Below, piece by piece: positions 1,427 to 12,552 of a stretch of 12,552 nucleotides of DNA (position 1 is its first letter; every line of letters begins with the position of its first letter). The notes under the pieces were generated by a model, which did not search any database, had not been told where the DNA came from, and worked only from the letters and a program-made list of their open reading frames with translations. Made by a program: the position numbers and the translations under genes. Source of the DNA: Promethearchaeota archaeon (lineage in GTDB: Archaea; Asgardarchaeota; Lokiarchaeia; Sigyniarchaeales; SOKP01). The DNA is taken from NCBI GenBank assembly GCA_048941265.1, contig JBHLNT010000120.1, positions 1 to 12,552 on the forward strand, written 5' to 3'.

Positions 1427-2026
1427 ATGCCTAAACCTAAATCCGAAGATTGGTTTAATCAGATCAGGAAAAATATTAGAGACACTTTTCAAAATATTAC
1501 GGCTGAAATTCTAGATGTATTTGAAGAACGTCCATCTTATGTTCAAATGAGACTTCCTGTTGACAAAATTACACAGGAGTTTGAAGAATCCTTGAAAGAA
1601 AAAATCGAACAGGGTGTGCTTCAAGCAGAGATACGGAAGGCTACAGAGCAAGATATTGAAAAAGTATATAATATATATAGTAAAGCATGGCAATCCACTT
1701 CGATGCCATTTCGAGAGGTTAGTCAGGATACTTTTTTAAAGTTTCAAAAACAATTCAATACTATTTTTTTAGTTGCTCGGGTTGAATCCATTGATAGTGG
1801 ATTTATCCTTATCCATTTTGAGGGAAAAAATAACGAGATTGGAGTAATTAACGGATTTGGAGTCTTACCTCAATTTCAACACAAAGGTTTGGGTATTACT
1901 CTCGCAATGGCCGCCTGGAATTACTTCAAAGAGAGAGGCGTTAGGGAGCTTCGATGTGAGGTTCATAAGGATAATAAAATTCCATATGCGTTTATCAAAA
2001 GTCTTGGCTTCGAAGAAATGCTTTAA
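1427..2026 (+). CDS. GNAT family N-acetyltransferase (paralogue 1)
   Basis: 199 aa. Start-of-domain IRKATEQD, acetyl-CoA motif A VLPQFQHKGLG, and motif B region LRCEVHKDN...FIKSLGF. Confidence 0.9.
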   Translation: MPKPKSEDWFNQIRKNIRDTFQNITAEILDVFEERPSYVQMRLPVDKITQEFEESLKEKIEQGVLQAEIRKATEQDIEKVYNIYSKAWQSTSMPFREVSQDTFLKFQKQFNTIFLVARVESIDSGFILIHFEGKNNEIGVINGFGVLPQFQHKGLGITLAMAAWNYFKERGVRELRCEVHKDNKIPYAFIKSLGFEEML

Positions 2027-2911: not shown

Positions 2912-4171
2912 ATGCTGAAAGTAGGGATAATAGGCACAGGTAGAGTATCTGATCTTAATTATTTAGCATATTATTATTCTTCCGATGCAGAAATAATTGC
3001 TGTTGCTAATACTGATAAGAATGAAGCAATAGAAAAATTGAAAAAGTGGAATTTAAGAACTGTTAAAGTATACACTGATTATAAAAAAATGATTGATAAT
3101 GAAGAGCTTGATATTGTTGAAATTTTAACCCCACACCATTTACATTGCTCAATGACAGAATACGCTGCGAAGGCTGGAGTGCCTGGAATATCTGTCCAAA
3201 AACCATTAGCACATACAATTTCAGACTGTGAGAAAATTATTCAGATTTGTGAGGAGGAAAAAGTTAAATTAAGATCGTTTGAAAATTTTCGATTTTATCC
3301 ACCCTACCTAAAAGCAAAAGAACTGCTTGACAACGGGATAATTGGAGAAACTATAAATTTTAGAATTAATACGATTGAATTTACAGGACCAGGTTGGCCA
3401 GTGAAACCAAGTTCATACCAATGGAGAGTTCAAATTGATAAATGTGGAGGAGGTCCATGGATATATGATGATGGGATTCATAAATTTTCCGTGGCGCTAT
3501 GGCTTATGGATCAAGATCGAGTAGAAAAAGTATATTCATGGATTGATTTCTTTACTGGAGTGATTGATGGGCCCGCTAATGTTTTTTGGAAATACCCAAC
3601 TAAAAATTCGGGTGATCCTCCTAAATATGGGTCTCTGGAGTTTTCTATGCCCCCAAATTTGTATTATCCTTCAAATTACTATGCCTGTGATGAATTTATT
3701 GAGATTTCGGGAACTAAGGGTATAATGTGGCTAAATCAATGTACAGCAGGGGGAAATTTCTTGTCAGAAACACCTCAATTTCCTCCCATTGTTGTATATG
3801 TTGATGGAGATATTAAAACATATGGGGAAGATCTACCAAGAGACTGGAGATATTCATTTATTAATGCAACGGAACATTTTATAGAAGTAATGAAAACTGG
3901 ACATGGAGAACCTATATATACTGGGGAACAAGGGAAAAACTTATGTATTTTTGCAAAAATGCCGTATATTTCGAATCAACGACGTAATATTGTTTATTGG
4001 GAAGAAATGACCTCAGAAAACGAAGATAAGGGATTATGTCAAGTTGAAGACCTTTCAGAAGGAAATGGAAGAGGAAATACAAGATTTTCTATTCGGAAAA
4101 AGAGAGATATGAGAAAAGGTATTGAACAAGGCTTAGAACATAAAGATTTTAATTATGAATACGATGACTGA
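2912..4171 (+). CDS. Gfo/Idh/MocA family NAD(P)-dependent oxidoreductase with C-terminal extension
   Basis: Rossmann start KVGIIGTG, DIVEILTPHHLH, QKP (EKP variant), ENFRFYP, GGGPWIYDDGIH (catalytic DxxxH). Confidence 0.92.
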   Translation: MLKVGIIGTGRVSDLNYLAYYYSSDAEIIAVANTDKNEAIEKLKKWNLRTVKVYTDYKKMIDNEELDIVEILTPHHLHCSMTEYAAKAGVPGISVQKPLAHTISDCEKIIQICEEEKVKLRSFENFRFYPPYLKAKELLDNGIIGETINFRINTIEFTGPGWPVKPSSYQWRVQIDKCGGGPWIYDDGIHKFSVALWLMDQDRVEKVYSWIDFFTGVIDGPANVFWKYPTKNSGDPPKYGSLEFSMPPNLYYPSNYYACDEFIEISGTKGIMWLNQCTAGGNFLSETPQFPPIVVYVDGDIKTYGEDLPRDWRYSFINATEHFIEVMKTGHGEPIYTGEQGKNLCIFAKMPYISNQRRNIVYWEEMTSENEDKGLCQVEDLSEGNGRGNTRFSIRKKRDMRKGIEQGLEHKDFNYEYDD

Positions 4172-4537: not shown

Positions 4538-5809
4538 TTAATCTCTTTTTACAACGTCCCTAGCTTCCCCTCCCTTAACAAAAAACATTGAAACTAAAGC
4601 TGCTATAAAGAAAAGTGAAATAATTAGAAAAAAGATATCAGTTCCAAGGAAATCAATAATAAAACCAACTATCGTGGGACCTAGTATAGCCCCTATGAAA
4701 ATTGCAAGGAAATAGAGCCCCGTAGATGTTCCCGTATTTTTACTTGAAGGAAGCAGTTCCCAGAGAATAACAACTACATGTATAACTATAAAAGAAAATC
4801 CTACTCCCGCTATAATAAGCCCGATGATTATCATTAGAGGAGTTTGAAATAAATGACATAATATCATTCCAAAAAAAAATTCTATTAGACCTATTTTAAT
4901 TGTTAATTTTCTCCCAATTTTGGTACCTATTATACCAGAAGGAATGGTCATCAATAAAAAAGATAAGGATAAAAAAATTAATAATGTTCCTGCGAGACTT
5001 CTTTCCAATTTCAAGACATCTGTGGCATATACACTGAAAAGTGATCTGAGTCCATAATATCCCGCTGAATACAAGAAAATAGCTAATAATAGAGCAATCG
5101 CACTTTTATCCTTGCTTTTAAGAATGTATCTAATATTTTCTATTAAACTTTGAAAAGGACCATCATTATTGTTATCTTTTTTTTTCTCCATTTCGATTAT
5201 TAGTTGATACCCATAAGAATCATTTTCATTAATCTTTAGCAACATCAAAATTAAACACATCACCATAATTAGAGCAATTATTAAAAATCCTAAAGCAAGG
5301 CTGATAGGCACCAAGAAAAAACTTATAATAAACGCAAGAATGGAGCCTATACTTGCCATAAAATTAAATACCGCGTATCCTTTACTTCTGTTGACTGGTT
5401 TTATAAAGTCTGGCATAAGAGCAATAGACTGAGATCTAAAACACGACATAAAAAAAGTAAATATAAACATATAGAGGAGCAATAACCAGAGAGGATCTGA
5501 ACTGGGATTTATTGTTGAGATTAGGATAAAAAAGAGTGCGGATAGAGGAATTCCAACCATTAAATAGGGCATTCTCCTTCCGAATCTAGTCCGAGTTTTA
5601 TCGGATACAGAACTGATTATTGGGATGACAATGATAGGAATGATATTAAAAATCGCAATCCAAAAACCGACTAACCCATAAGAACCTAGATATTGAAAGA
5701 GAGTTATAGATACTTGAGCATAATAAAAAGTCCAACAGAGTATATTAATGAAAAAACCTAAACTAAGAAAGAGTGTTAAATGTAAATTAAATTTGTCTTG
5801 TTCAGTCAT
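4538..5809 (-). CDS. MFS transporter, GPH/SLC45-like (sugar or glycoside) type
   Basis: 423 aa with about 12 hydrophobic segments in a 6+6 layout. Loop motif SDKTRTRFGRRMPY, ALMPDFIKPVNRSKG, and second-half motif GIIGTKIGRK. Confidence 0.9.
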   Translation of the reverse strand: MTEQDKFNLHLTLFLSLGFFINILCWTFYYAQVSITLFQYLGSYGLVGFWIAIFNIIPIIVIPIISSVSDKTRTRFGRRMPYLMVGIPLSALFFILISTINPSSDPLWLLLLYMFIFTFFMSCFRSQSIALMPDFIKPVNRSKGYAVFNFMASIGSILAFIISFFLVPISLALGFLIIALIMVMCLILMLLKINENDSYGYQLIIEMEKKKDNNNDGPFQSLIENIRYILKSKDKSAIALLLAIFLYSAGYYGLRSLFSVYATDVLKLERSLAGTLLIFLSLSFLLMTIPSGIIGTKIGRKLTIKIGLIEFFFGMILCHLFQTPLMIIIGLIIAGVGFSFIVIHVVVILWELLPSSKNTGTSTGLYFLAIFIGAILGPTIVGFIIDFLGTDIFFLIISLFFIAALVSMFFVKGGEARDVVKRD

Positions 5810-5824
5810 TATTTCAAGGAGAAT

Positions 5825-6931
5825 TCAGTTTATATCATCAATATAAATTTCTTTACCAATTTCTGATGATTTAATAGCAGCTAAGTTAAATTTTAAAATA
5901 TATTTTGCTTGTTCACCAGATAAAATTGGATCTTTATTTCCTTTAATTACCTCAATAAAATGTTTGGTCGCATTGATGAAACTACATTTCCAATCTTTTT
6001 CAAAATCGGAGTAGGTTTCAACTTTACCGTCTCGAATTATAACTATTGGAGGGAATACTTCTGAATTTGACATTTTATTTCCAATTGACGTTCCTTGATT
6101 AACTTTCATTAAACCTCGACTTCCGATGATTTCAATAAACTCATCAGTAGGATAATATTTAGAGGGAAGCTCCATTTCAGGCATTAGAGCAAATTCCATG
6201 TTTCCATATTGCGGGACAACGTGCTCTCTACTTGCTTTAAATTTCCACATTACATACGCAGGAGCGTCTATTCCTTTATAATTATCAGTCCATGCAAAGA
6301 CTCTTTCAATATCCTCCCCAAATAGCCACCAACCTAAAGTGAATGCATGCCAGCCATTATCAAGAAGAACAGGAGATCCTTTTTCAGCACCACCCACTAG
6401 GCTTGGATCTAATCGCCACTTATCAGCACTTTCTGGAATAAACCATCCTCCTTTAGCACCCATGGCAATTTTGATTCTAATAGACGAGGGATCTCCTATG
6501 TAATCTTGATCAATAAGTTGTTTTGCTTTTAGAATGTGAGGATCAAACACAAAGTTTTCATAAATAGATAAAATTGAGCCTGACTCCTTACAAGCATCAA
6601 TCATCTTATCTGCTTCTTCTAATGACATAGCCATTGGTTTTTGGACTGATATTCCTTTTATCCTTTTTTGAGTAGCATAAATTGTTGCTTCAGCGTGCAG
6701 ATGGTGAGGTAAGAGAATTTCTACTATATCTAAATTCTCACTATCAATCATTTCTTTATAATCAGAATATACTGGAATTGACTTGTTAAGCTTAAACTTA
6801 TCGATTTTCTCCTTAGCTTTTTCAATTGTCCGATTACATAAGCATGTGATTTCCACATCATTATTATTAAGATAACCAAGCACGTTTAAGTCAAAAATTA
6901 CTCCAGTCCCTATTATTCCTACTTTTAACAT
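5825..6931 (-). CDS. Gfo/Idh/MocA family NAD(P)-dependent oxidoreductase (paralogue of 2912..4171)
   Basis: MLKVGIIGTG, DIVEILLPHHLH, SVQKPMA, LLDNGWH. A 15-bp gap to the MFS gene suggests co-transcription. Confidence 0.92.
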   Translation of the reverse strand: MLKVGIIGTGVIFDLNVLGYLNNNDVEITCLCNRTIEKAKEKIDKFKLNKSIPVYSDYKEMIDSENLDIVEILLPHHLHAEATIYATQKRIKGISVQKPMAMSLEEADKMIDACKESGSILSIYENFVFDPHILKAKQLIDQDYIGDPSSIRIKIAMGAKGGWFIPESADKWRLDPSLVGGAEKGSPVLLDNGWHAFTLGWWLFGEDIERVFAWTDNYKGIDAPAYVMWKFKASREHVVPQYGNMEFALMPEMELPSKYYPTDEFIEIIGSRGLMKVNQGTSIGNKMSNSEVFPPIVIIRDGKVETYSDFEKDWKCSFINATKHFIEVIKGNKDPILSGEQAKYILKFNLAAIKSSEIGKEIYIDDIN

Positions 6932-7284: not shown

Positions 7285-8220
7285 TTATTTTAAAAAATTT
7301 GATACAAATTTAAAATCTTCAAAATCGAATGGTTTTAAAATCAGTCCATTTGCTCCTGTTTCATTTTTTTTTTTCTCAGCTTCTTTTTTTGGAATTGCTG
7401 TTAAATATACTATTGGAATATCTTTATATTTTATATTAGACTTTAATTTTTTGCAAAATTTATCTCCCATCATATCAGGCAAGAATATATCGAGAAGAAT
7501 TAATTTAGGGATATTACTGTTTAATTCTTTTAACGCATCTCTCGTGTTAAACACACATTTAAAGGAAACACCTGATCTTCTAAAGTGTTCGGAAACTAAT
7601 TTGGTTGTTCCAATATCGTCATCGATTAATAATACATTATATTTAGAGTGTTTAACAATAGAAGATTCAAAATAATATTTTAATCTGTCTTCTAAGTCTA
7701 AACAGGATTTATCAAGTTCTTGAAAATAATGATTCTTTTTAAGTTGAGGAAGATCGTCAAGAATTAAATTACTAAAACCTCTTATAAGAGATAAAGGTTC
7801 CTTTAAATCGTGAAAGATCTCAGAATTAGTAAATTTCTCTTTTTGATAGTAATTTTTAATTGATTCAGTAGTTAAATTTGAAACTGACTTGAAATTTGTT
7901 CTTTCACCAAATCCTTTAAGTAAATTGGTAATATCTATTAAATAACTTACAGCTAATCTTAGTAGTTTTGAAATTGAACTATATTCGTTTTCATGAGCAA
8001 ATTTAATCCATTTATCTTTCGTATTAAAATTTAAATAAGTAACAACTTTTTCAATATCTTGGTTATAAGAATAAATTTTTTCTCCTTTTTTCCATTTTTT
8101 AAAACTAGCGGTAATTTTTTCTTGCCAAATAGCTTTTTTACCTGTTTCCTCCTCGAATAGGACCATTTCTTTTGTTTTTTTGCTCTTAGCGATTTTAAAA
8201 TCCACCCTATTTTTTTTCAT
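7285..8220 (-). CDS. Atypical response regulator: N-terminal ETGKxAIW motif, putative ribbon-helix-helix, HisKA/DHp-like helices, C-terminal receiver domain
   Basis: Receiver: VLLIDDD, LILLD244IFLPD, T274, K296P. H-box-like FH137DLKEPLSLIRGFS with no HATPase boxes. Strand-helix-helix pattern at aa ~57-97 (KVVTYLNFNTKDKWIKFAHENEYSSISKLLRLAVSYLI). The receiver call is firm; the RHH call is by pattern only. Confidence 0.85.
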   Translation of the reverse strand: MKKNRVDFKIAKSKKTKEMVLFEEETGKKAIWQEKITASFKKWKKGEKIYSYNQDIEKVVTYLNFNTKDKWIKFAHENEYSSISKLLRLAVSYLIDITNLLKGFGERTNFKSVSNLTTESIKNYYQKEKFTNSEIFHDLKEPLSLIRGFSNLILDDLPQLKKNHYFQELDKSCLDLEDRLKYYFESSIVKHSKYNVLLIDDDIGTTKLVSEHFRRSGVSFKCVFNTRDALKELNSNIPKLILLDIFLPDMMGDKFCKKLKSNIKYKDIPIVYLTAIPKKEAEKKKNETGANGLILKPFDFEDFKFVSNFLK

Positions 8221-8405: not shown

Positions 8406-9131
8406 TTATGGTTCTTCAAATTTACTACCAATACCATAATAAACTAAATAAGATCCAGTAAGTGCTAAAAATAAAGATATTAGGGCCCATATAGTCCTGA
8501 ATGTAGAATTATGTAATGTATTTGAGAAAAATATTCCATACAATAAAATAAACAGTAAATTTGAACCTATTATAAATATTTTCCATTTTTTCCTTAATAA
8601 TTCGTCTAAAAGTATTTGGTATATTTTTACTTCAAAATATATACTTGGTATTATAGCAATAGTTGTCATTATAACCATCACATAAATAAAAAGGGTTAAG
8701 TTCCAGTGTGGATACCATCCAGTATCAGCATTAATTATAACTCCATTAGGGATTAATACCATAAAAGAAATTAACATCCCATAAATAAATATTATTAACA
8801 GTTGAGTTGATTTGTTAATTTTTTCCTCACCCTTAAATATAGTTAAACAGAAAATCATAAGAAAGATGGGACCAAGAATTACAAAGAAATTCGTGAGAAA
8901 GTTTAAAAATATTAAAATCTCTGGATCAGTTAGAGGAAAATAAATAAAATTAATAAATATACCAATATCCTCAGATAAAAAAAAACCAACCAGAATTATT
9001 TTTAGTTTCTTTGGATCATTTTTAATAATTCTAACAATTAAATAAAGAAAAAAGATAAAAACAATACTCAGAGCAATGTAAACTTGTATAAATCGAATTA
9101 ATGTTAGTTGAGATAAAACCGTAAATATCAC
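8406..9131 (-). CDS. Stand-alone 7-TM membrane protein (HisKA_7TM-like putative sensor)
   Basis: 241 aa, GTG start. Seven hydrophobic segments, basic loops after TM1, TM3 and TM5, a longer loop between TM4 and TM5 (NGVIINADTGWYPHWN), and no cytoplasmic signalling domain. Confidence 0.75.
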   Translation of the reverse strand: MIFTVLSQLTLIRFIQVYIALSIVFIFFLYLIVRIIKNDPKKLKIILVGFFLSEDIGIFINFIYFPLTDPEILIFLNFLTNFFVILGPIFLMIFCLTIFKGEEKINKSTQLLIIFIYGMLISFMVLIPNGVIINADTGWYPHWNLTLFIYVMVIMTTIAIIPSIYFEVKIYQILLDELLRKKWKIFIIGSNLLFILLYGIFFSNTLHNSTFRTIWALISLFLALTGSYLVYYGIGSKFEEP

Positions 9132-10822: not shown

Positions 10823-10977
10823 GATTAAATTTAACTTTTTTTTTTAAAATCCTTACTTTTCTACATTTTTATAAAAATATTTTGAAAATATTAAATAAAT
10901 ATGTTAACAAGAAATGATCTTTTTTCATTTAAAAATCTTAATTTTCTTTTTGTTTATTTATATCAATTTAGCGTATA

Positions 10978-10992
10978 TATATTTAAAAGTTT
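10978..10992 (-). promoter_or_regulatory. Candidate BRE/TATA element upstream of the histidine kinase
   Basis: The minus strand reads AAACTTTTAAATATA about 155 bp upstream of the kinase ATG. The surrounding region is very AT-rich. Confidence 0.25.
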
Positions 10993-11362
10993 AATACTTG
11001 ATTTTATACGAATTAAGATTTTTATGTTAATTTAAATTCTACCTATGAAACTATTATAAAATTTTTAATTAGGAAAACTAAAAGATCTGTGAGCGGACAA
11101 ACATTCTAAATGTAATATTTTCGATTTTGACTTAAAAGTTTTTAAGATTAAATATGCTATAATGCTTCCTCGGTCGTAATTTTATCAATTTTTTGTTTAC
11201 TAAGATTGGAAAATAAAAATTATCTTATTTGAAAATAAGTTATAAATATTTTTTAACTATACTATGAAAAAAAAATGATTTAAAATTTTTTCGAGCTTTT
11301 ACATTATTACTATTAAATCTTAGGCATATTAAATTGGACTATATTATTGATAGATTTGTTTA

Positions 11363-12430
11363 TTACCAGGATCTCCAACCATGTTGACATAAAGTCAAAG
11401 CAGAAGTAAGCGTTGTTGTACTTATAGGATCAAAAGACATAGGGATTTGAAATACAATACCACCAGAGGGATTTCTAGCTTGTAACCAAATTCCAATTGG
11501 AGGAAAAGAGACTGATTCAATTGATATCCAAGCTCCACCATCAGGATGATTTATTGAGCTAAGATGTAAAACTGCTTCGAATTCCAAAACATAAAGAGTT
11601 AAAACAGCCAAAATTATGGTGGCTATCAGTCCACCAGCGAAAAGTCCTATAACCCAAGTTATTGCATCTATTATAAGTGTGCCCGTACCTATATTATTTA
11701 CTTCTGTCGCCGAATATTTAAGATGAAATGTAATCGAAATATATAGTGGAATGAATAAAAACCAAAGATTCGTTAAAATACATGCAGTAGAAAATAATGG
11801 AACGATTAATTCAGGTTGTGCTAATATTAAAGCCATTCTTAGTATGAGGGATTGAGCATTATTGCGAGCATCATCTAAATGATTAAATAGGGCATTGACA
11901 AGCAGAGCAAAAGTATATCCCATTAAAATCGCATCAACGACACCTCCAAATCCGACGATCTTTTTGTTAGTGTTTTCTGTGAAATTATAAATATTAGCAC
12001 CATAGCAGGCTGCTAGAAATATATACTTAGCCGTCGTTTGGGAAATTAATTGTGATAATTGATACCAAGAAATTAACTCTCCATCTAAGATAATACCATT
12101 TTCTGAACCGTGAGAAAATATAACAAGTATTTCGTTATTATCAGACGAAGCAATATTATCTTGTTGATCAATTTCAACTTCGCTATTTATATTATCTGTA
12201 AAGGTTAAAACTCCAGTATTTGCAGCATCTTCGTCACTTCCCACAATTAAAGTAACTTTTTGAAGTATTACGGATGTTTTCGGATCTTTGTCGGCTTGAT
12301 CAGCGATATCGTTATTTTGAGTTGTAGAATTAATATTTTGAAATTCGACAGCAATAATGAAATAAGTACTAAAACAAAAGAAAAATATGAATACCATCGA
12401 TTTAAATTTTTTATTTTTCAGTTTTTTCAC
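11363..12430 (-). CDS. Exported protein with caspase-like (clan CD) cysteine peptidase domain and hydrophobic C-terminal domain
   Basis: GTG start, basic N-region plus hydrophobic stretch (signal peptide or anchor). ILVIFSH107G and YIFLAAC142YG match the strand-His-Gly and strand-Ala-Cys dyad of the caspase/CHAT/gingipain fold. Gly/Ala-rich hydrophobic stretch at aa ~251-286. Confidence 0.7.
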   Translation of the reverse strand: MKKLKNKKFKSMVFIFFFCFSTYFIIAVEFQNINSTTQNNDIADQADKDPKTSVILQKVTLIVGSDEDAANTGVLTFTDNINSEVEIDQQDNIASSDNNEILVIFSHGSENGIILDGELISWYQLSQLISQTTAKYIFLAACYGANIYNFTENTNKKIVGFGGVVDAILMGYTFALLVNALFNHLDDARNNAQSLILRMALILAQPELIVPLFSTACILTNLWFLFIPLYISITFHLKYSATEVNNIGTGTLIIDAITWVIGLFAGGLIATIILAVLTLYVLEFEAVLHLSSINHPDGGAWISIESVSFPPIGIWLQARNPSGGIVFQIPMSFDPISTTTLTSALTLCQHGWRSW

Positions 12431-12552
12431 CTTTTTTTTAATAACTTTTTTCGATAAATTCTAAAATTCGACCATCAACAGAAATTAAATTAAATGATCA
12501 AATTTGAGAAAAAGTTATCAACTTTCATATTTAAACTCTTTACTGACTTTTG

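What the first reader, a model, noticed from the sequence alone, without database searches (positions are those of the whole stretch)
11795..12430. Exported caspase-like (clan CD) protease domain
Seen: a signal peptide or anchor (aa 1-28), a polar linker ending DPKTS, then an alpha/beta domain with ILVIFSHG (His107, 12110-12112) and YIFLAACYG (Cys142, 12005-12007), followed by a KIVGF strand. Known: a hydrophobic strand plus HG and a hydrophobic strand plus xC is the catalytic dyad pattern of caspases, metacaspases, CHAT/separase, gingipain and the C80 autoprocessing domains of MARTX toxins. Inference: a compact extracellular clan CD peptidase likely to be annotated only as hypothetical.
Basis: partly seen in the sequence, partly recalled or inferred. 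Interest (0 to 1): 0.75.

Follow-up and report, generated by a model that had tools for sequence, protein, structure and literature searches.

The report
Archaeal caspase-like protease with swappable cargo
This gene encodes a probably exported archaeal protein in which a small caspase-like protease is fused to a fast-changing, water-repelling tail that it probably cuts free, a layout typical of the toxins microbes use against their competitors.

Summary
The caspase-like domain is real, but it is only part of the gene. His107 and Cys142 are invariant in 71 of 71 aligned homologues. A confident model (pLDDT 90.5) best matches a CHAT protease (Z 11.6). Close relatives lie in Asgard (Promethearchaeota) genomes. 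In 59 homologues the peptidase is one family, but the tails fall into 22-25 BLAST clusters. Conservation stops sharply after Leu212 (Leu in 64 of 71), and one pair has an 86%-identical peptidase with unrelated tails. In 2 of 5 related loci the gene is followed by a small membrane gene and a 5'-truncated copy of the peptidase, the toxin-immunity-orphan layout; the window lacks both. Best reading: an exported pro-protein that cleaves itself after Leu212 and releases a polymorphic, probably membrane-active effector. Fold and polymorphism are shown; cleavage and toxicity are inferred. No library searched holds the family.

The parts
11363..12430 (-). Whole ORF, 355 aa from GTG. The true start may be the in-frame CTG at 12419-12421, because the GTG lies inside a GGTGA Shine-Dalgarno-like word (inferred).
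   Evidence: the same word sits just before the presumed starts in L003 and L005
12341..12397 (-). Hydrophobic core (aa 12-30) of a Sec-type signal peptide or uncleaved membrane anchor, after a Lys-rich N-terminus; no twin arginine
   Evidence: 43 of 52 homologues with a long enough N-terminus have such a stretch; no signal-peptide predictor was available
12269..12340 (-). Polar linker, aa 31-54
   Evidence: pLDDT below 50 in the full-length model
11795..12268 (-). Minimal caspase/CHAT-like (clan CD) peptidase domain, aa 55-212
   Evidence: model pLDDT 90.5, pTM 0.85; SAVED-CHAT 8tl0 Z 11.6, rmsd 3.6, 149 aligned
12110..12112 (-). His107, predicted catalytic, at the end of strand 3
   Evidence: 71 of 71; secondary structure
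12005..12007 (-). Cys142, predicted nucleophile, just after strand 4
   Evidence: 71 of 71
11933..11935 (-). Asp166, at the start of helix 4, in the expected substrate-binding loop
   Evidence: 69 of 71; isolated beta-bridge in the model
11795..11797 (-). Leu212, last conserved residue; predicted P1 of self-cleavage (inferred)
   Evidence: Leu 64, Met 3, Ile 2, His 1, gap 1 of 71; conservation drops at 213
11366..11794 (-). C-terminal cargo, aa 213-355: beta-hairpin, hydrophobic helical hairpin, three-stranded sheet, helix; no family match
11561..11701 (-). Hypervariable hydrophobic helical hairpin of the cargo, aa 244-290
   Evidence: 40% mean identity among 16 close relatives, against 88% in the peptidase and 83% in the following sheet

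Best explanation
A Sec-exported or membrane-anchored archaeal pro-protein of a polymorphic toxin-like system. Outside the cell, the CHAT-like His107/Cys142 domain binds its own C-terminal junction (aa 209-212), cuts after Leu212 and releases the 143-aa cargo. The cargo's hydrophobic helical hairpin most likely inserts into the membrane of competing cells. Cargo type is varied by rapid divergence and by recombination with 5'-truncated cassettes. In one subclade a small adjacent membrane protein is the candidate immunity factor. Shown: fold, dyad conservation, constant-peptidase/variable-cargo architecture, swaps, cassette layout in two loci. Inferred: export (about 0.85), self-cleavage at Leu212 (about 0.65), toxicity and immunity (about 0.5).
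For: Fold; the full-length model's Foldseek list is mostly caspases. Dyad 71 of 71. Polymorphism: 59 rows give 1 peptidase cluster but 22-25 cargo clusters; 1229 of 1711 peptidase pairs and 71 of 1711 cargo pairs have E<1e-5. Swap: P0070/P0084 are 86% identical in the peptidase and sisters at 100/100 support, their cargos have no BLAST match, and each cargo matches a different group. Boundary: among 16 close relatives aa 205-212 are invariant and 213-214 fall to about 35%. L003 vs L005 differ at 17 of 156 peptidase residues and 65 of 144 cargo residues (P=3e-11); pN/pS is 0.45 in the peptidase and 0.9-2.3 in the cargo blocks. Positions expected to line S1 (70, 73, 140; mapping recalled from caspases) are hydrophobic or small. 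The model has isolated beta-bridges at Asp166 and Pro211, as a substrate-like docking would give. 56 of 59 cargos have a membrane-length hydrophobic segment. L003 and L005 show gene, small 2-4 TM gene, then a truncated peptidase repeat (90% nucleotide identity in L005). P0016, P0018 and P0106 begin with the sequence of that junction and carry complete cargos. Precedents: caspase-like releasing peptidases upstream of toxin domains (PMC3482391); P1 Leu in C80 (PMC4357240) and in the Runella CHAT protease (10.1101/2021.06.07.447441).
Against: No cleavage or toxicity data. The window has no candidate immunity gene downstream (only a 44-aa ORF in 10823-11362) and no orphan copy; the upstream side is off the contig. 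The cassette layout is in 2 of 5 true loci only. Cargo labels mostly follow the peptidase tree (9 changes, minimum 7, shuffled mean 28.7), so swaps are few. HHalign merges several helical cargo clusters (85-97%), so 22-25 overstates the number of unrelated folds. No cargo matches a known toxin above noise, apart from a glycine-zipper match (best E 3e-6) and a weak Bacteriocin_IIc match (best E 0.054) in 2 of 71 members. Some members carry non-toxin-like tails: TSP3 repeats, Ig-like domains, a weak reprolysin match. Pro211-Leu212 falls where the sixth caspase strand begins. The bridge partner cannot be read without coordinates. pN/pS rests on one pair, uncorrected. Mosaics in metagenome proteins could be assembly chimeras.
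Confidence: 0.5

Rival explanations
1. Same self-cleavage, but the module is a general removable pro-domain or release device for surface proteins. The cargo is a coat, adhesion or kin-recognition subunit that diversifies to escape viruses or to mark self; it is not a toxin.
For: The same peptidase heads large proteins with Ig-like or TSP3 repeats (P0039, P0087, P0092, P0100). Query-type cargo continues into long tails in P0021 and P0024. No immunity candidate in the window or L002. Microbial GAIN-like MAIN domains release varied surface proteins (10.64898/2026.05.12.724683, abstract).
Against: Uniform small hydrophobic cargos (130-212 aa) in 59 rows. Adjacent small membrane gene whose divergence concentrates in one segment (50% identity against 78-87% elsewhere). 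Orphan cassettes.
Confidence: 0.27
2. No self-cleavage. Leu212 starts the sixth strand of the caspase fold, and the protein is a membrane-tethered protease acting in trans; the variable C-terminal domain is an anchor or sensor that sets its specificity.
For: Clan CD members have a six-stranded sheet (PMC4357240), while the model has five core strands before aa 212. The procaspase-7 alignment runs to model residue 159 (aa 209) at chain residue 287, just before caspase strand 6 (numbering recalled). The junction resembles the CHAT C-terminal motif (recalled). Asp166 could select a basic P1, as in separase (recalled).
Against: Residues after Leu212 are unconstrained. In 15 of 63 rows a Gly- or Pro-rich linker follows within 30 residues, and several rows have Gly directly after the Leu. 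Alignment occupancy drops from 0.98 at aa 213 to 0.55 at aa 214. The cargo evolves faster than an anchor needs to.
Confidence: 0.15
3. A stand-alone 212-aa secreted peptidase.
For: Motifs and hydrophobic N-terminus are present.
Against: The frame continues for 143 codons and the tail is conserved in relatives.
Confidence: 0.03
4. The domain is a flavodoxin-like or periplasmic-binding-like alpha/beta fold and the His/Cys pair is not catalytic.
For: Flavodoxins, LacI-type and ABC binding proteins fill most rows at Z 8-8.9 and in Foldseek. No Pfam clan CD model passes its cut-off.
Against: The CHAT hit stands 2.7 Z units above them, with 149 residues aligned. His and Cys are the only invariant columns and sit after strands 3 and 4. 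The only peptidase hits in Pfam are weak C13 and C25 matches. Six of ten Atlas structure rows are named CHAT and one C13.
Confidence: 0.05

Closest known systems
CHAT family proteases (PF12770; SAVED-CHAT 8tl0, Craspase TPR-CHAT 7y85, Runella gasdermin-associated CHAT)
   Same: Best structural match (Z 11.6-11.8); His/Cys placement; the Runella enzyme cuts after Leu and activates a pore former.
   Different: No Pfam CHAT match in any of 71 members. About 158 aa only, with no TPR, SAVED or other sensor domain. Carries a signal peptide or anchor, and the presumed substrate is in cis.
Polymorphic toxin systems with caspase-like releasing peptidases (Zhang et al. 2012, PMC3482391)
   Same: Signal peptide, caspase-like domain directly upstream of a variable C-terminal domain, domain exchange, stand-alone cassettes, adjacent small gene.
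   Different: The passages read list bacterial lineages for the caspase versions. Here the host is archaeal, there are no RHS or filament repeats, the protein is about 350 aa, and the cargos are hydrophobic with no match to known toxin domains.
C80 cysteine peptidase domain of MARTX and large clostridial toxins
   Same: Clan CD autoprocessing with P1 leucine, as inferred here.
   Different: Weak structural match (3eeb, Foldseek rank 37, TM 0.39). The model keeps two helices after strand 5, where C80 has the InsP6-binding beta-flap. The predicted cut is C-terminal to the domain.
Halocin C8 precursor (ProC8)
   Same: Secreted archaeal precursor cleaved to release a C-terminal antimicrobial part (10.64898/2026.07.27.741052, passage).
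   Different: ProC8 is Tat-exported, its N-terminal part is the immunity protein and its protease is unknown. No Pfam match to it.
Legumain (C13)
   Same: Second clan CD structural hit (5obt, Z 8.7-8.8); weak Pfam C13 match in 2 of 71 members; has a C-terminal domain that blocks S1.
   Different: Below cut-off; Asn/Asp specificity; its C-terminal domain is a conserved pro-domain, not polymorphic.

Membership tests
Clan CD (caspase-haemoglobinase fold) | His and Cys at the C-terminal ends of strands 3 and 4 | tested here: met
   Strand 101-105 then His107; strand 136-140 then Cys142; 71 of 71; feature as in PMC4357240
Clan CD (caspase-haemoglobinase fold) | Structural similarity to solved members above background | tested here: met
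   8tl0 Z 11.6, rmsd 3.6, 149 aligned; next unrelated row Z 8.9
Clan CD (caspase-haemoglobinase fold) | Six-stranded sheet, five parallel and one antiparallel | tested here: inconclusive
   Five core strands before aa 212; whether aa 213 onward supplies a sixth cannot be read without coordinates
Clan CD (caspase-haemoglobinase fold) | His and Cys adjacent in space; Cys-dependent proteolysis | not testable with these tools
   Model coordinates are not returned; no assay
CHAT (PF12770) | Match to the Pfam profile | tested here: not met
   No CHAT match for the query (E<=1) or among the 25 families listed for 71 members
C14 caspase/metacaspase, C25 gingipain, C13 legumain | Pfam profile above the curated cut-off | tested here: not met
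   Query: none. Members: C25 3 of 71, best E 0.013; C13 2 of 71, best E 0.0013; C14 not listed
C14 caspase/metacaspase, C25 gingipain | Charged S1 pocket for Asp, Arg or Lys | tested here: inconclusive
   Positions 70, 73 and 140 are hydrophobic or small, but the mapping is recalled and Asp166 is conserved nearby
C80 MARTX/Tcd CPD | InsP6-binding beta-flap in place of helices 4 and 5 | tested here: not met
   Helices 167-181 and 185-204 follow strand 5 at high confidence; feature
Polymorphic toxin system | Constant N-terminal export/processing region with variable C-terminal domain | tested here: met
Polymorphic toxin system | Exchange of the C-terminal domain by recombination | tested here: met
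   P0070/P0084 clear, P0096/P0098 probable, P0107/P0108 mosaic; few cases, assembly chimeras not excluded
Polymorphic toxin system | Stand-alone 5'-truncated cassettes near the full gene | tested here: inconclusive
   Truncated peptidase repeats in 2 of 5 loci, both ending before any cargo; absent from the window. Cargo-bearing versions are known only as proteins P0016, P0018, P0106
Polymorphic toxin system | Adjacent cognate immunity gene | tested here: inconclusive
   Small membrane gene directly downstream in L003 and L005; no homologue in the window, L001, L002 or L004
Polymorphic toxin system | Toxic activity of the C-terminal domain | not testable with these tools
   No family or fold match for the cargo

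The most novel reading that the evidence does not exclude
Asgard archaea carry their own family of secreted, self-activating membrane-active toxins. A minimal caspase-like protease cuts a pro-protein after a leucine and frees one of many interchangeable hydrophobic effectors, backed by membrane immunity genes and silent cassettes. It would be a caspase-fold-activated membrane attack system in the lineage closest to eukaryotes, with cargo folds not yet described.
Probability: 0.4. Interest if true: 0.88.

Novelty: new variant of a known kind. Interest (0 to 1): 0.7.

Why it matters
Little is known about how Asgard archaea compete with or recognise other cells. This family gives a concrete, testable candidate: a small two-domain protein with a predicted cut site, a point-mutant control, natural cargo variants and a candidate immunity gene. 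It also adds an unclassified, minimal, exported clan CD peptidase family (about 90 clusters at 50% identity) and several undescribed membrane-active domain candidates. It bears on how old the pairing of caspase-fold proteolysis with membrane-damaging effectors is.

Tried and rejected
No match for the query in Pfam or NCBIfam. The domain fragment has none in PHROGs or PADLOC, and other members show only scattered weak hits. Profiles A1, A5 and A2 found nothing meaningful among PDB sequences. No tblastn match in the phage or plasmid collections. The search for longer fused forms by word index found none, although later returned long members. The cargo gave no usable Atlas hit (features none, best TM 0.40). 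The full-length model (pLDDT 55) gave no Z of 8 or more and no viral hit at E<=0.001; the cargo was not folded alone, so its fold is untested, not shown to be new. Locus L006 (Bacillota, 40-residue match, E 4e-4) was rejected as chance. Promoter and terminator scans were at chance level. The window has no informative repeats. The cluster look-up could not be made, so the taxonomy of the distant members is unknown. Scans with the diverse alignments A2 and A3 could not be run; only close relatives were located. Metagenome and viral contig collections stayed unchecked. The 2019 mBio survey of archaeal polymorphic toxins (recalled) was not held and may already touch on this family.

Full report
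Observation. The extent is wrong. The frame runs on to a stop at 11363, giving 355 aa. The neighbours are a PAS histidine kinase, a response regulator, two Gfo/Idh/MocA oxidoreductases, an MFS transporter, two GNATs and a sulfatase. None recurs next to the gene in related loci, so they are not part of the feature.

Family. The word-indexed search gave 14 proteins, one of them the window's own. A profile of these found 91 representatives at E<=0.001 in the 50%-identity library. Alignment A2 holds the window fragment (aa 51-240), 6 further proteins and 64 of those 91. I left out the self hit and 26 fragments, long proteins or atypical rows. In A2 His107 and Cys142 are the only invariant columns; Gly108, Gly112, Trp122, Asp166 and Leu212 reach 90%. 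Of the 26 rows left out, 17 of 17 that cover the His keep it and 21 of 21 that cover the Cys keep it. The profile itself contains these residues, so this is partly circular. The query matches no Pfam or NCBIfam family. Members show only sub-threshold C13 and C25 hits among peptidases.

Host. The scan of GTDB genomes confirmed 6 of 59 candidate stretches. Four are Promethearchaeota MAGs, one is an uncultured archaeon and one is a weak Bacillota match that I reject. The true hits are 37-48% identical, in loci of 26-32% GC against 29% for the window. I infer an Asgard host. The taxonomy of the distant members could not be looked up.

Fold. With A2 the model of aa 51-240 has mean pLDDT 90.5 and pTM 0.85. 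It shows five core strands, His after strand 3, Cys after strand 4 and two long helices after strand 5. Against 48,161 PDB representatives the best match is SAVED-CHAT (8tl0, Z 11.6, rmsd 3.6, 149 aligned). Unrelated alpha/beta proteins follow at 8.9 or less and legumain scores 8.7. Foldseek ranks the same entry first; Craspase and procaspase-7 appear at Z 8.2 and 7.8. The poorer full-length model (pLDDT 55) hit mainly caspases. The dyad placement matches the clan CD definition in PMC4357240 (passages), but a sixth strand is not evident inside the domain. It is a clan CD fold closest to CHAT, and not a member of PF12770, C13, C14, C25 or C80 by the tests run.

Constant head, variable tail. For this analysis I kept 59 of the 71 rows, dropping 6 near-duplicates, 5 truncated tails and 1 misaligned row. 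The peptidase forms one cluster; the tails form 22 (E<1e-3) or 25 (E<1e-5) clusters. Tails are 130-212 aa with mean hydropathy 0.61 against 0.11 for the peptidase, and 56 of 59 have a membrane-length hydrophobic segment. 43 of 52 rows with enough N-terminus have a signal-like stretch. By eye there are two broad types: beta/helical-hairpin/beta, like the query, and all-helical. HHalign joins several helical clusters at 85-97% and links the query type to group B at only 46%, so the cluster count overstates fold diversity. On the peptidase tree the cargo labels are strongly clustered: 9 changes, minimum 7, shuffled mean 28.7; the helical label was partly set by eye. Most diversity is therefore divergence by descent. 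Swaps do occur. P0070 and P0084 are 88% identical up to the junction and sisters at 100/100, yet their tails share no BLAST match and each matches another group. A few long members carry Ig-like, TSP3 or weak reprolysin matches.

The junction. The column of Leu212 is Leu in 64, Met in 3 and Ile in 2 of 71. In 16 close relatives aa 205-212 are invariant and 213-214 drop to about 35%. Mean identity there is 88% in the peptidase, 71% in the first hairpin, 40% in the central helices, 83% in the sheet and 53% in the tail. P0107 and P0108 are identical over the peptidase part they cover but carry different central helices. L003 and L005 differ at 17 of 156 peptidase and 65 of 144 cargo residues (P=3e-11). 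Their pN/pS is 0.45 in the peptidase and 2.3, 0.9, 2.0 and 1.7 in the cargo blocks; this is one pair, uncorrected. Residues I expect to line S1 are hydrophobic or small (mapping recalled). The model has lone beta-bridges at Gly108, Asp166 and Pro211. The simplest reading pairs Pro211 with Asp166, as P2 pairs with the substrate loop in caspases, which puts Leu212 at P1. The partner is not given, so this is inference. Leucine P1 is documented for C80 and for the Runella CHAT protease (10.1101/2021.06.07.447441, passages). The rival is that Pro-Leu marks the start of strand 6. The unconstrained, often Gly-rich sequence after it argues against that.

Locus layout. In L003 and L005 the gene is followed, on the same strand, by a 142-146 aa membrane gene and then at once by a copy of the peptidase gene that starts near aa 128. 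In L005, 5829-6061 and 7248-7480 are 90% identical, and a further remnant lies upstream at 5176-5280. Both copies are broken and end before any cargo. P0016, P0018 and P0106 begin with the sequence of that junction, lack the His strand and carry complete cargos, so cargo-bearing cassettes probably exist in other genomes. The membrane gene is 78-87% identical between the two loci except in one segment at 50%. This is the toxin-immunity-cassette layout described in PMC3482391 (passages). Against this, the window, L001, L002 and L004 have neither a homologue of that membrane gene nor a second peptidase copy, and the window ends 122 bases upstream of the gene.

Mechanism. Export by Sec; cis cleavage after Leu212 by His107/Cys142; release of a cargo whose hydrophobic hairpin enters a target membrane; specificity varied by fast divergence and occasional exchange. 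Fold, dyad conservation, polymorphism and the two-locus layout are shown. Export, cleavage, toxicity and immunity are inferred (overall 0.5). The main rival is the same release device serving non-toxic surface or recognition proteins (0.27).

Novelty. Nine literature searches were run. Eight were aimed at this family (listings only) and showed no description of it; sought the gasdermin precedent. I read passages of PMC3482391, PMC4357240, PMC6393860, 10.1101/2021.06.07.447441 and 10.64898/2026.07.27.741052. I saw only abstracts and outlines of PMC9424270, PMC13431529 and 10.64898/2026.05.12.724683. No supplements were read. Supplementary domain tables, Asgard orthologue tables and a 2019 archaeal conflict-system survey (recalled, not held) could already list the family. 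The logic of the system is known; the host lineage, the minimal exported peptidase and the cargos appear undescribed. Verdict: new variant of a known kind, interest 0.7.

Noticed in passing
window 12419-12431; L003 about 178-217; L005 about 5445-5484: A GGTGA word sits 5-7 bases before an in-frame CTG (window) or ATT (L003, L005). These genes probably use non-ATG starts, and databases call them late and lose the signal peptide.
   Followed up: partly
L002 8858-9420 and 11049-11614: The homologous gene lies between two copies (about 80% identical, 560 bp) of a winged-HTH plus zinc-ribbon gene pair, suggesting insertion or local duplication.
   Followed up: partly
window 1427-2026 and 2159-2788: Tandem GNAT acetyltransferase paralogues, 56% identical.
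   Followed up: no
window 2912-4171 (+) and 5825-6931 (-): Two convergent Gfo/Idh/MocA oxidoreductase paralogues (45% identical) around an MFS transporter, near a sulfatase; possibly a sugar or sulfated-sugar use cluster.
   Followed up: no
window 7285-8220 and 8406-9131: Response regulator with an unannotated N-terminal region and a degenerate HisKA-like segment, next to a 241-aa multi-pass membrane protein with no Pfam or NCBIfam match, downstream of the PAS kinase.
   Followed up: no
proteins P0021, P0024, P0039, P0074, P0087, P0092, P0100, P0056: Several long proteins have the peptidase, a query-like cargo or both at the N-terminus, followed by Ig-like or TSP3 repeats or a weak reprolysin-like domain. 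P0056's tail looks like a glycoside hydrolase by eye (recalled; no Pfam match).
   Followed up: partly
proteins P0053, P0063, P0065, P0066, P0067, P0084, P0090, P0103, P0042 and others: All-helical cargos share a start motif like G-L-S-x-x-E-x-x-Y-W and an acidic end like D-x-D-D-x-V-G, often after an Asp-Pro-Gly/poly-Gly linker. The conserved ends might mean further processing.
   Followed up: no
window 11780-11782 and 11387-11389: The cargo has Cys217 near its start and Cys348 near its end; L001 and P0004 also have cysteines at both ends, so a disulfide may close the cargo. Not kept in L003 or L005.
   Followed up: no
proteins P0081, P0082, P0089: Weak hits with the His/Cys motifs but no signal peptide or cargo; possibly a stand-alone sister family.
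   Followed up: no
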